Origin: Escherichia coli
Lineage (GTDB): Bacteria > Pseudomonadota > Gammaproteobacteria > Enterobacterales > Enterobacteriaceae
Assembly (NCBI RefSeq): GCF_051903065.1
Contig: NZ_CP178438.1
Strand: one strand, 5' to 3'
Length of the DNA stretch: 64,000 nucleotides
Part shown: positions 24,001 through 27,000 of the stretch, in pieces
How the letters are laid out: each line of letters starts with the position of its first letter
Position numbering within the stretch: the stretch's first letter is position 1
Made by a program: the position numbers

Positions 24001-27000
24001 CGGTCGGTTCTTACGGTAAAACGACACAACCAAACGCTTCTTATCCTGCAATGAACTGCTTTATTACCGAGTTTAGTGACCGCACAGACACTCACTTTTA
24101 AGAAAAACAGAATGGTAAACAAACTCCATGAATTACAATAGCTCTCTGGCTGCCGCCACAATAGCTTGCGCGGTTAACCCGTACTCTCTCTGTAAAAAGT
24201 CCTGAGTTTCAACCTGGCCATACCGCTCTTTAACCCCCACCCGACGCATGGGCACAGGACAAGTTTCTACAAGCACTTCAGCAACTGCTGAACCTAATCC
24301 ATTATGAATACGGTCATGACTCCAATTAGTTGAATTAGGGGTATAATAGCCACTTTTAAGGTTCTTTCATGGTCACAGTTAACCTTCATTGCTCCTGTTG
24401 CCAGTCCGTTCAGGTTTACCGTCACGGGAAGAACCCAAAGGACATGATCGATTTCGCTGCCGTGACTGTCATCGAGTGCTTCAGCTCACTTACCGTTACG
24501 AGGCCCGTAAACCGGGAGTTAAAGAGCAAATCACTGAAATGGCTTTCAACGGTGCCGGAGTTCGCGATACTGCCCGTACGCTGAAAATCGGCATTAATAC
24601 TGTCATCCGGACTTTAAAAAACTCTCGCCACGAAGAATAACGTCATACCCGGTCGCTCATGCTGATATGGCTCTCATCTGCGAACTTGATGAGCAATGGA
24701 GTTTTGTCGGCAGTAAAGCGCGACAGCACTGGCTCTGGTACACGTACAACACGAAAACTGGTGGCGTTCTGGCCTACACTTTTGGCCTACGGACTGATTA
24801 AACCTGTCGTGAATTGCTGGCGCTGCTTGCCCTTTTACCATCGGTATGTTGACCACTGACGAATGGGGTAGTTACACCAGAGAGTTACCGAAGGAGAAGC
24901 ATCTGACTGGTAAGATTTTTACTCAGCGCATTGAGCGCAACATCTACCTCTGAGAACCCGAATCAAACGTCTGGCCCGCAGAACTATCTGTTTCTCGCGC
25001 TCTGTAGAACTTCATGAAAAAGTCATCGGTGCCTTTATCGAAAAATATATGTTCTACTAATTGGAGTCACCACCTTCGTTTGTTTAAAGAACCTGCTGGT
25101 CCTGCCATTAATATTACCTGCTGATTGCTTCACATCCGGATTCCTCGCACTGCGCGCGGGTTATTGTTTCGTTTTCGGCCACGGGGTCGCCAGGGCTCTG
25201 TTTGCAGGCCATGATGGCCTGACCTGTACTGTTTCTCAGGCACTGAGATGTCCGTTTACGCCATTTGTTCCCGGATATCCTTAACCTCTGACGTTTGTTC
25301 CCTGCCCCTCTGTCTGATAACGAATACGCTCACAACGCACAGTACTGAACAATACCGACAACAACATGTCTTACATGAAATTCGCTGTAACATCCACCGG
25401 AAAACATTTTCAGATATCGGATGAGGTACTACTTCCATTGACAGCGCGAGGTAACAAAATTGATGGTAACTCTGACCATTAACCGTAAACCGCAGGGTAT
25501 TTTCAGTAAATCACCGGCAACGCCGCTGCAGGATAAAACGGACACAGCATACAAAATGAAGGCCGGTGACCAGATACCACAGTTGAACGATAAACAGAAA
25601 CCTGCTGATAAAACACCGTGGCGACATGACAAAACGCCAGAGCAAAAACCGTAAGCGCATTATTCGTCTTGTGGAACTCTGGCCTGAGTCATTCAACCGG
25701 GAAAAAAACAAAACCACTTAAAGTGGGGATACCTGACGACCTGATACAGGATATCGCCATCCGAGAACTGGCGTTTGGCGCTGGTACATTACATGCAGCA
25801 GTGGCGTCTTATGTGCAGTCTCCGCGCTATTACCGTGCGTTAATAGCAGGTGGCGCCCGTTACAACCTGAACGGTCAGCCGTGCGGGGAAGTGACACCAC
25901 AGGAACAGAAAGAGGCAGAGACCCGTTTAATGATGCTGAATGACCGACGAAAAGCCAGAAAACCTCGTTGACTGCACAACTGCGCTGATTCACTGAGCTG
26001 TAATCAATGTACAGCGCTGTACCGGACGATGGGTAATGGCGATCACAACCGGTAACCCCAGAGACAATGCGACTGTTTTTAACGCAACATACTGGCCAGA
26101 TGTATCACCCCGGGCAACCCGAAAACACCTTTCAACCTGGCATTGTCCGCCAGCGCTTATCACCTTCCAGGTCTGTTGCAATAAATCCACCCGTTGCGAA
26201 CATTCTTCATCAACCGTGGCACTGGCCCGCGGATGGCAAATGCTCGTCTGGCTGAGCAGCAACAGGCATCGTATTGTTGCTCCTCCATGTTGTTCCCGCA
26301 ACCAGCGTAATACCACCGGCGAGGATGGACAGGCAGTGTGATTACGCTCAGTAATACGTTCGTGCACCTGTCGGTAAAAGGAAGTACAGAATGCCTGAAT
26401 CTGTTGCCCGTTGATGTTTCCTTCAGCCGAATGGAGCGTGAAGTGGACTGCCAGCAGACGCGGCCAGTGGTCCACCGCCTGCTGAACAAAACGCCGGATG
26501 TCTCCCGGCTCTGAAATTAAGGCTTCGGTTATTTGCACGAAATGTTCCTTTTCAAACCCTGTTGAATTTTGTTAAGCCGGTGCAGACACACGGGAAGGTG
26601 CGCATCAACACCGGTGTAATGCCAGTTATAAACAATGTGAATGGAATGACGAATCAGTCAGGAAAGAGCTACAACCTGCTGGCTGACCGGAGAGGGTCAG
26701 CAGGAAAATGAACGGTAATGTCGCCAGCACCAGGGACAGGGCTGATTTCCGCAATACCAGCGCCGGCATTTTGCACATTGCCAGCGTACCGGCATCACAA
26801 CACGTTTCATGCTGCTGCTCCTCGTGATTCCTCAATTCGCTGCTGCATCCACTGCTCCACTTCACTTTTGTACCAGCGGCTGCTGCGGCCCAGCTTGATG
26901 GGTTTCGGGAAATGGCCTTCACTGATCAGCTTGTAAAACCATTTGTCGGTCATACCGGTGAAACTGGTGATGTAGTTCATGTCGATCAGGGGATCGTCAG

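What the first reader, a model, noticed from the sequence alone, without database searches (positions are those of the whole stretch)
24141..25074. Degenerate IS1-family element abutting a transketolase-like gene fragment
A divergent IS1-like element with frameshifted insA/insB-like frames sits next to the last about 55 codons of a transketolase-family gene, with the second 75-bp repeat copy just beyond. This marks an old junction between island modules.
Basis: partly seen in the sequence, partly recalled or inferred. Interest (0 to 1): 0.3.

Follow-up and report, generated by a model that had tools for sequence, protein, structure and literature searches.

The report
Dead IS1-type element, truncated transketolase gene
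This is an inactivated IS1-family insertion sequence sitting where about 5.3 kb of a sugar-uptake/transketolase operon was deleted from an E. coli genomic island; it is an ordinary fossil already annotated in hundreds of genomes.

Summary
Window 24312-25074 is a 763-bp IS1-family element with 23-nt terminal inverted repeats, a conserved A6C frameshift motif, and insA/insB frames. Three 1-nt deletions and one GAA>TAA nonsense codon break those frames, on top of the normal programmed frameshift. It is about 53% identical to classical IS1A, 92% to copies labelled IS1H-family, and 97% to intact 766-bp copies on E. marmotae and Salmonella plasmids. Window 24133-24311 (minus strand) holds the last 58 codons plus stop of a 317-aa transketolase C-terminal-subunit gene.

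E. coli MSHS 133 and about 130 other complete genomes keep the intact locus: LacI regulator, ascorbate-type PTS IIA/IIB/IIC, and two transketolase subunit genes. Both flanks of the window's IS match that locus at about 99-100%. The IS occupies the place of exactly 5,284 bp, and no target-site duplication remains. About 289 of 5,426 complete E. coli genomes share this deletion form.

So this is an IS-associated deletion scar inside one island module, not primarily a seam between two modules. RefSeq already annotates both features as pseudogenes. One detail is unexplained. The IS right end lies exactly where the operon cargo meets the CP4-like island backbone. Interest is low.

The parts
24133..24311 (-). 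3' remnant of the transketolase C-terminal-subunit gene: last 58 codons, the stop, and 2 nt of the preceding codon. The first 775 nt of the 954-nt gene are missing.
   Evidence: Translation. 57/59 positions (stop included) match the intact 317-aa gene of E. coli MSHS 133, which carries Transket_pyr and Transketolase_C domains. PGAP annotates a pseudogene 'transketolase family protein, missing N-terminus'.
24312..25074 (+). Degenerate IS1-family (IS1H-related) insertion sequence, 763 bp, with insA to insB reading left to right.
   Evidence: IRs. 97.1% identical to the intact 766-bp element on E. marmotae pEM148, 92% to a PGAP 'IS1H family' copy, 52.7% identical alignment columns versus IS1A. 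Pfam and NCBIfam IS1 domains.
24312..24334 (+). Left inverted repeat (IRL), GGTCATGACTCCAATTAGTTGAA. It carries two substitutions relative to intact relatives (24315 A>C, 24319 C>A).
   Evidence: The 24315 change is absent from sister copies in strains PKF4 and LH50-c.
25052..25074 (-). Right inverted repeat (IRR), GGTGGTGACTCCAATTAGTAGAA, identical to that of the intact relatives.
24369..24640 (+). insA-like frame broken by loss of one A in the run 24437-24439. The zinc-ribbon part (24369-24437) is out of frame with the HTH part (to 24640).
   Evidence: ORF list, alignment to intact copies, HTH_Tnp_IS1 7e-31.
24616..24622 (+). Conserved A6C slippery motif (AAAAAAC) for the -1 programmed frameshift that would fuse InsA to InsB.
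   Evidence: Read directly from the sequence. Conserved with IS1A and all relatives. In the intact relative a -1 shift here gives a 231-aa InsAB'.
24623..25060 (+). insB-like (DDE) region broken by a nonsense codon TAA at 24799-24801 (GAA in intact copies), loss of one C in the run 24830-24832, and loss of one A at 24942.
   Evidence: DDE_Tnp_IS1 2e-21 on the first surviving piece.
23948..24022 (.). Second copy of the ~75-nt repeat. It is the terminal region of an IS66-family (IS682-like) element whose truncated tnpA remnant lies at 23769-23944 (minus strand).
   Evidence: repeat. (thousands of hits at IS66-family sites). (position just upstream of tnpA of an intact IS682). (HTH_Tnp_1 in the remnant).
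25075..25971 (+). Start of the CP4-like island backbone (TTCGTTTGTTTAAAG...), including the frameshifted ProQ/FinO pseudogene at 25463-25971. About 100% identical to the stretch that follows the LacI gene in MSHS 133.

Best explanation
An IS1-family element (IS1H-related subtype) inserted into a pheV/pheU-type E. coli genomic island, next to or inside a horizontally acquired operon. That operon runs LacI regulator, ascorbate-type PTS IIA/IIB/IIC, transketolase N-subunit, transketolase C-subunit. The element then produced an IS-anchored adjacent deletion by intramolecular replicative transposition from one IS end.

The deletion removed 5,284 bp: the LacI gene, the three PTS genes, tktN and the first 775 nt of tktC. 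It left one IS copy without a target-site duplication, flanked by the last 179 nt of tktC on the IRL side and by the island backbone on the IRR side.

The IS later decayed in place through three 1-nt deletions, one nonsense codon and IRL substitutions. It can no longer make InsA or InsAB' and is an immobile fossil. The tkt remnant is non-functional.

Shown here: the identity of both parts, the exact deletion endpoints, the lesions, and the population counts. Inferred: the one-step transposase-mediated mechanism and the order of events.
For: - Both flanks are collinear with an intact locus. Window 22823-24311 matches L008 40713-39225 at 98.7%, and window 25075-25970 matches L008 33940 onward at about 100%, with 5,284 bp between them in MSHS 133.
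- The intact operon is present in 133 complete genomes. The IS-plus-deletion form is present in 288-289 genomes with identical junctions.
- There is no target-site duplication: left 9-mer TATGAATAC, right 9-mer TTCGTTTGT.
- The deletion starts exactly at an IS terminus, as described for adjacent deletions (PMC9330008, section 5.2.1). IS1 replicative deletions are cited from Turlan & Chandler 1995 in bioRxiv 10.1101/2023.06.07.543989.
- The lesions are defined against intact 766-bp relatives that encode a 90-aa InsA and a 231-aa InsAB'.
- All sampled copies share the four inactivating lesions and differ only by a few later changes.
- No full-length copy closer to the intact type exists in 5,426 complete E. 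coli genomes.
Against: - The sequence cannot distinguish a one-step adjacent deletion from recombination between two directly repeated IS copies. Both leave the same product.
- No intermediate was found in 5,426 genomes. The intermediates sought were the IS with an intact LacI-side flank, or the IS inside an otherwise complete tktC.
- The right IS end sits exactly at the older cargo/backbone seam. That is an unlikely coincidence if the IS inserted at random, and it hints at a more complicated history.
- Which IS end was the original insertion site is unknown.
Confidence: 0.55

Rival explanations
1. Two-copy model. Two copies of the same IS1-type element inserted in direct orientation, one in tktC and one at TTCGTTTGT beside the backbone. 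Homologous (RecA) recombination between them then deleted the 5.3-kb interval and left one hybrid copy.
For: It gives the same end product: a single IS, no target-site duplication, and clean endpoints at both IS termini. IS-rich islands often carry several copies; the same window holds other IS remnants and an intact IS1A.
Against: It needs two independent insertions of a subtype for which no other full-length copy is seen in complete E. coli genomes. No genome with either single insertion was found.
Confidence: 0.3
2. The IS is the seam where two independently acquired island modules were joined, for example by IS1-mediated cointegration or by recombination between IS copies on different molecules. 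Under this reading the tkt fragment was already truncated when it arrived.
For: The IRR abuts the exact nucleotide at which the widespread CP4-like backbone begins. The region is a mosaic of IS remnants. The right flank switches backbone allele about 900 bp from the IS.
Against: In 133 genomes the same left flank and the same right-flank allele are joined through the intact operon without any IS. The two flanks therefore already belonged to one contiguous segment before the IS event.
Confidence: 0.1
3. The element is an intact, potentially active IS1 variant whose only frame break is the normal programmed -1 frameshift.
For: The A6C motif and both inverted repeats are present.
Against: There are three extra 1-nt deletions and a TAA nonsense codon relative to intact 766-bp relatives. 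PGAP flags it 'frameshifted; internal stop'. By contrast, the IS1A copy at window 49581-50348 is annotated with the programmed frameshift only.
Confidence: 0.01

Closest known systems
IS1H and related IS1-family elements of Enterobacteriaceae (ISfinder IS1 family)
   Same: About 765 bp with 23-nt inverted repeats. It has an InsA zinc ribbon and HTH, an A6C -1 frameshift site, and a DDE_Tnp_IS1 InsB. It is 92% identical to chromosomal copies that PGAP labels 'IS1-like element IS1H family' and 97% identical to intact copies on E. marmotae, Salmonella and E. albertii plasmids.
   Different: This copy is dead (four inactivating lesions). It is only about 53% identical to classical IS1A, and blastn with IS1A does not detect it. 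At 92% to the one IS1H-family copy compared, it falls below the ~95% isoform convention (recalled from memory). Its exact ISfinder name could not be determined here.
IS1-mediated adjacent (replicative) deletions (Turlan & Chandler 1995, as cited in bioRxiv 10.1101/2023.06.07.543989; reviewed in PMC9330008)
   Same: The deletion begins precisely at an IS terminus, the IS is retained, and the target-site duplication is lost.
   Different: This is a natural, ancient event inferred by comparative genomics. The mechanism was not observed and cannot be separated from two-copy recombination.
Split-transketolase / ascorbate-type PTS operon of Salmonella enterica next to yfcC (LacI, IIA, IIB, IIC, tktN, tktC)
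   Same: Same gene order and content as the intact E. coli island operon. The C-terminal 58 aa are 88% identical by tblastn.
   Different: In Salmonella it is a chromosomal core-like locus between yfcD and yfcC. In E. coli it is island cargo, and in the window only the last 179 nt survive.
CP4-type tRNA-Phe-associated genomic islands of E. coli/Shigella (pheV/pheU islands; context recalled from memory)
   Same: A mosaic of IS remnants, a ProQ/FinO-YagK/YfjJ-AlpA-YfjI backbone, a CbtA/CbeA toxin-antitoxin pair, and cargo such as pap, aerobactin or resistance genes.
   Different: Nothing unusual. In this window the cargo includes an ISCR2-floR-tet(A)-strAB-sul2 resistance block.

Membership tests
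IS1 family insertion sequence | Terminal inverted repeats of about 23 bp beginning GGT | tested here: met
   24312-24334 and 25052-25074, 20 of 23 complementary. These are the only two matches in the window, with 0 expected in shuffles.
IS1 family insertion sequence | Length of about 768 bp | tested here: met
   763 bp here. Intact relatives are 766 bp and IS1A is 768 bp.
IS1 family insertion sequence | InsA (zinc ribbon plus HTH) and InsB (DDE_Tnp_IS1) coding regions | tested here: met
   Window fragments: HTH_Tnp_IS1 7e-31 and DDE_Tnp_IS1 2e-21. Intact 97% relative: all three Pfam domains, and NCBIfam transpos_IS1 at 262.7 bits against a cut-off of 100.
IS1 family insertion sequence | A6C slippery site for the -1 programmed frameshift at the insA/insB overlap | tested here: met
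   AAAAAAC at 24616-24622, conserved with IS1A. The role of the motif is taken from PMC12428005.
IS1 family insertion sequence | Flanking 8-9-bp target-site duplication (typical of a simple insertion) | tested here: not met
   TATGAATAC versus TTCGTTTGT. This is expected after an IS-anchored deletion and does not argue against family membership.
IS1 family insertion sequence | Able to encode a functional transposase | tested here: not met
   Three frameshifting 1-nt deletions and one nonsense codon. Whether the ends could still be mobilised in trans is not testable here.
IS1H (named ISfinder isoform) | At least ~95% nucleotide identity to the IS1H reference (ISfinder convention, from memory) | tested here: inconclusive
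   92.0% identical to one PGAP-labelled 'IS1H family' copy. No ISfinder reference sequence was available, and PGAP gives the window copy only the generic name 'IS1 family transposase'.
Transketolase family, C-terminal subunit (Transket_pyr + Transketolase_C) | Transketolase_C domain in the fragment itself | tested here: inconclusive
   Pfam PF02780 E=0.0068, 16.8 bits, below the 25.9-bit cut-off. The fragment covers only profile positions 75-124.
Transketolase family, C-terminal subunit (Transket_pyr + Transketolase_C) | Orthology to a full-length family member | tested here: met
   98.9% nt identity (whole 362-nt query 23950-24311) and 57/59 positions (stop included) identical to the 3' end of the intact 317-aa gene of MSHS 133. 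That gene scores Transketolase_C 2e-32 and Transket_pyr 4e-24.
Transketolase family, C-terminal subunit (Transket_pyr + Transketolase_C) | Complete coding sequence | tested here: not met
   Only 58 of 317 codons remain. The partner tktN gene and the PTS genes are deleted.

The most novel reading that the evidence does not exclude
The same IS1-type element may have created both the window's junction and the IS-free junction seen in intact-operon genomes. In this scenario a common ancestor carried the IS in the island backbone at TTCGTTTGT, with the tkt/PTS cargo further to its left. One lineage (the window) underwent an IS-retaining adjacent deletion into tktC. The sister lineage (MSHS 133 type) lost the IS together with adjacent DNA, in an excision-plus-deletion of the kind stimulated by IEE. 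That would explain why both junctions start at exactly the same backbone nucleotide. It would be a natural example of insertion-deletion-excision remodelling of gene order by an IS.
Probability: 0.2. Interest if true: 0.25.

Novelty: already known. Interest (0 to 1): 0.1.

Why it matters
It matters little beyond bookkeeping. It documents how an accessory carbohydrate operon (ascorbate-type PTS plus split transketolase) was lost from a widespread E. coli pheV/pheU-type island. About 289 complete genomes carry the loss, against 133 that keep the operon. The fixed, dead IS is a clean lineage marker for that island variant, including a copy that has moved onto an NDM-5 IncI-type plasmid. The nucleotide-exact coincidence with the cargo/backbone seam is a small puzzle about IS-driven island remodelling. 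It does not point to a new kind of element.

Tried and rejected
- **Intact IS with programmed frameshift only.** Rejected by alignment to intact 766-bp relatives.
- **Search for evolutionary intermediates.** I used a chimeric query (LacI-side flank + IS left end; IS right end + the deleted tktC sequence). No record among 5,426 complete E. coli genomes covered more than the IS parts alone (51%).
- **Alternative left flanks for the IS/backbone junction.** The right junction occurs in 289 genomes and the whole structure in 288, so there are essentially no alternatives.
- **A closer, intact copy of this IS subtype in E. coli.** The best full-length matches to the intact E. marmotae element are the tkt-adjacent dead copies themselves.
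- **Two scans of one-genome-per-species contigs** for the backbone boundary sequence, hoping to see other left flanks in other species. Both returned 0 hits.
- **Rfam scan of 21000-29000** at E<=0.1 found nothing.
- **tRNA scan of the whole window** found nothing, so no att-like tRNA end explains the boundary.
- **blastn with IS1A** finds only the canonical copy at 49581-50348, not the element under study.
- **Literature search** for the Salmonella locus name (STM2340 plus transketolase) found no papers. The operon has no published name that I could cite.
- **Aerobactin-island context.** The first best hit (CP033635) has this context, but it matches the window only over 22399-26540. The window's own context is the Sanji/ECNB21-M121 type.

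Full report
**What is there**

Window 24312-25074 is bounded by 23-nt inverted repeats: GGTCATGACTCCAATTAGTTGAA at 24312-24334 and the complement of GGTGGTGACTCCAATTAGTAGAA at 25052-25074. A degenerate search for these ends finds only these two sites in the 64-kb window, against none expected in shuffles.

The broken reading frames inside carry the IS1 InsA HTH domain (7e-31) and the IS1 DDE domain (2e-21). The A6C slippery motif of IS1 is conserved at 24616-24622.

The element is very different from classical IS1. Only 52.7% of alignment columns are identical to IS1A of K-12. A blastn search of the window with IS1A does not detect it. It is 92% identical to chromosomal copies that PGAP calls 'IS1-like element IS1H family'. 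It is 96-97% identical to intact 766-bp elements on plasmids of Escherichia marmotae, Salmonella enterica and E. albertii. IS1H is a recognised IS distinct from IS1 (PMC3032704).

**Why it is degenerate**

The E. marmotae copy encodes a 90-aa InsA. With a -1 shift at A6C it also encodes a 231-aa InsAB' that matches all three Pfam IS1 domains and the NCBIfam IS1 equivalog. Relative to it, the window copy has four inactivating lesions:

- One A missing from the run at 24437-24439, which breaks insA.
- TAA in place of GAA at 24799-24801.
- One C missing from the run at 24830-24832.
- One A missing at 24942.

It also has two substitutions in IRL. Sister copies in other strains share all four inactivating lesions and differ by only one to three later changes. 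No full-length copy closer to the intact type exists in 5,426 complete E. coli genomes. The element is therefore a fixed fossil. RefSeq annotates it 'IS1 family transposase; frameshifted; internal stop'.

**The transketolase fragment**

Window 24133-24309 (minus strand) translates to IHNGLGSAVAEVLVETCPVPMRRVGVKERYGQVETQDFLQREYGLTAQAIVAAARELL*. On its own it is only a sub-threshold Transketolase_C hit (E=0.0068).

However, the surrounding 362 nt are 98.9% identical to E. coli MSHS 133. The fragment matches the last 59 positions (stop included) of that strain's intact 317-aa 'transketolase family protein' at 57 of them. That protein has Transket_pyr and Transketolase_C domains.

In MSHS 133 the gene is the last of an operon: LacI regulator, PTS IIA, IIB, ascorbate-type IIC, transketolase N-subunit, transketolase C-subunit. 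Salmonella has the same operon next to yfcC. By tblastn, the C-terminal 58 aa are 88% identical.

**What happened**

BLAST of the window against the MSHS 133 region shows two collinear blocks. Window 22823-24311 matches L008 40713-39225 at 98.7%, and window 25075 onward matches L008 33940 downward. In 100-nt windows the right flank is 99-100% identical for about 900 bp. Beyond that it switches to a different backbone allele, which indicates later homologous recombination.

The 763-bp IS therefore stands in place of exactly 5,284 bp (L008 33941-39224). That interval holds the LacI gene, the three PTS genes, tktN and the first 775 nt of tktC. The 9-mers flanking the IS differ (TATGAATAC and TTCGTTTGT), so there is no target-site duplication.

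The intact operon is present in 133 complete genomes. The IS form, with identical junctions, is present in 288-289.

A deletion that starts precisely at an IS terminus, keeps the IS and loses the duplication is the signature of an adjacent deletion by intramolecular transposition (PMC9330008; IS1 replicative deletions cited). Recombination between two directly repeated copies would leave the same product and cannot be excluded. No intermediate of either kind was found.

**The '75-bp repeat'**

Copies lie at about 4045-4122 and 23948-24022. The second is 111 nt beyond the tkt stop codon. It matches thousands of sites at IS66-family elements. In an intact IS682 it lies immediately upstream of tnpA.

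The adjacent pseudogene at 23769-23944 has the IS66/IS3-type HTH_Tnp_1 domain. The 289-bp tkt remnant with its 3' untranslated tail is thus sandwiched between two dead insertion sequences.

**An unexplained detail**

The sequence to the right of the IS (TTCGTTTGTTTAAAG...) is the start of a widespread CP4-like backbone (ProQ/FinO, YagK/YfjJ, AlpA-like HTH, YfjI and so on). In four other contexts this backbone continues leftward into an H-NS-side segment without interruption.

Both the MSHS 133 intact-operon arrangement (LacI tail...CAGCATG|TTCGTTTG) and the window (IS IRR|TTCGTTTG) leave the backbone at the same nucleotide and share the same right-flank allele. There are two possible readings:

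- The IS inserted by chance exactly at a pre-existing cargo/backbone seam. The last 100 nt of the LacI-side tail are only 26% G+C, and from memory IS1 prefers AT-rich targets.
- The IS made both junctions. One lineage kept the IS and deleted into tktC. The other lost the IS together with adjacent DNA, a deletion class described for IEE-stimulated excision, which also acts on IS1-family elements.

I found no genome that decides between these, and two cross-species scans returned nothing.

**Context**

The window is E. coli chromosome. Positions 1-44893 are 99.99% identical to strain Sanji. Positions 44000-64000 match strain ECNB21-M121 at 99.9%, next to the glc operon.

The island carries an ISCR2-floR-tet(A)-strAB-sul2 block at about 13.4-22.1 kb and a papA remnant. 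It also carries the CP4-like backbone with CbtA/CbeA and ParDE toxin-antitoxin pairs. No Rfam family and no tRNA gene is found near the feature.

**Verdict**

Its interpretation as a module junction is better stated as an IS-associated 5.3-kb deletion scar inside one cargo module. Both features are already annotated as pseudogenes in hundreds of RefSeq genomes. This is an ordinary, already-known kind of feature and interest is low.

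Noticed in passing
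window 25075 (compare L008 33940 and 6796; L012-L014 at about 3000): The right end of the dead IS coincides to the nucleotide with the point where the tkt/PTS cargo joins the CP4-like backbone in IS-free genomes. The H-NS-side backbone runs uninterrupted across this point in four other contexts. The cause is unresolved: either a chance insertion at the seam or an IS that made both junctions.
   Followed up: partly
window 11966-12016: A 51-bp near-perfect palindrome, CTGATGAATCCCCTAATGATTTTGATAAAAATCATTAGGGGATTCATCAG. From memory it looks like two IS10/ISVsa5-type outer ends back to back. It sits exactly where homology to the dGTPase-side backbone ends (11965) and a truncated papA begins (12022), so it may mark the left edge of the cargo.
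   Followed up: no
window 49581-50348 (minus strand): A canonical IS1, 99.9% identical to IS1A and annotated with the programmed frameshift only. It truncates a type VI secretion gene (tssG) and abuts glcA. Its flanking 9-mers differ (TGCGAGGTT and AACGGAGAC), so it is probably a second IS1-associated deletion scar in the same window. It makes a useful contrast with the dead IS1H-like copy.
   Followed up: partly
L018 (pNDM5_LS003, NZ_OP290546.1 9474-28236): A stretch of this chromosomal island is present on a conjugative IncI-gamma/K1 NDM-5 plasmid. It includes the dGTPase gene, the pap regulators, floR, the tkt remnant, the dead IS (100% identical), ProQ and YfjI. This suggests the island segment was captured from chromosome to plasmid.
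   Followed up: no
window 22340-22906 and about 13400-22100: The 'hypothetical protein' at 22340-22906 appears to be the C-terminal remnant of a YadA-like adhesin gene. That gene is 1.26-1.54 kb in MSHS 133 and CP033635. It seems to be truncated by the ISCR2-floR-tet(A)-aph(6)-Id-aph(3'')-Ib-sul2 resistance block. Homology to the other islands starts only at 22399 or 22823.
   Followed up: partly
window 25970-26600: The right flank switches at about 25970 from about 100% identity with MSHS 133 copy 1 to near-identity with a different backbone allele (MSHS copy 2 type). This is a homologous-recombination breakpoint inside the YagK/YfjJ-like gene.
   Followed up: partly
whole window; 44619-45500: ARAGORN finds no tRNA gene anywhere in the window, although the island is of the tRNA-Phe-associated type. 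In strain Sanji the same island abuts cadC with only a 160-nt integrase fragment. In the window's own lineage it abuts JetD and T6SS remnants and the glc operon. The same island therefore occupies different chromosomal sites in different strains.
   Followed up: partly
window 25463-25971: The ProQ/FinO-family gene immediately right of the IS is itself a frameshifted pseudogene. The same broken allele is present in the intact-operon strain MSHS 133.
   Followed up: no
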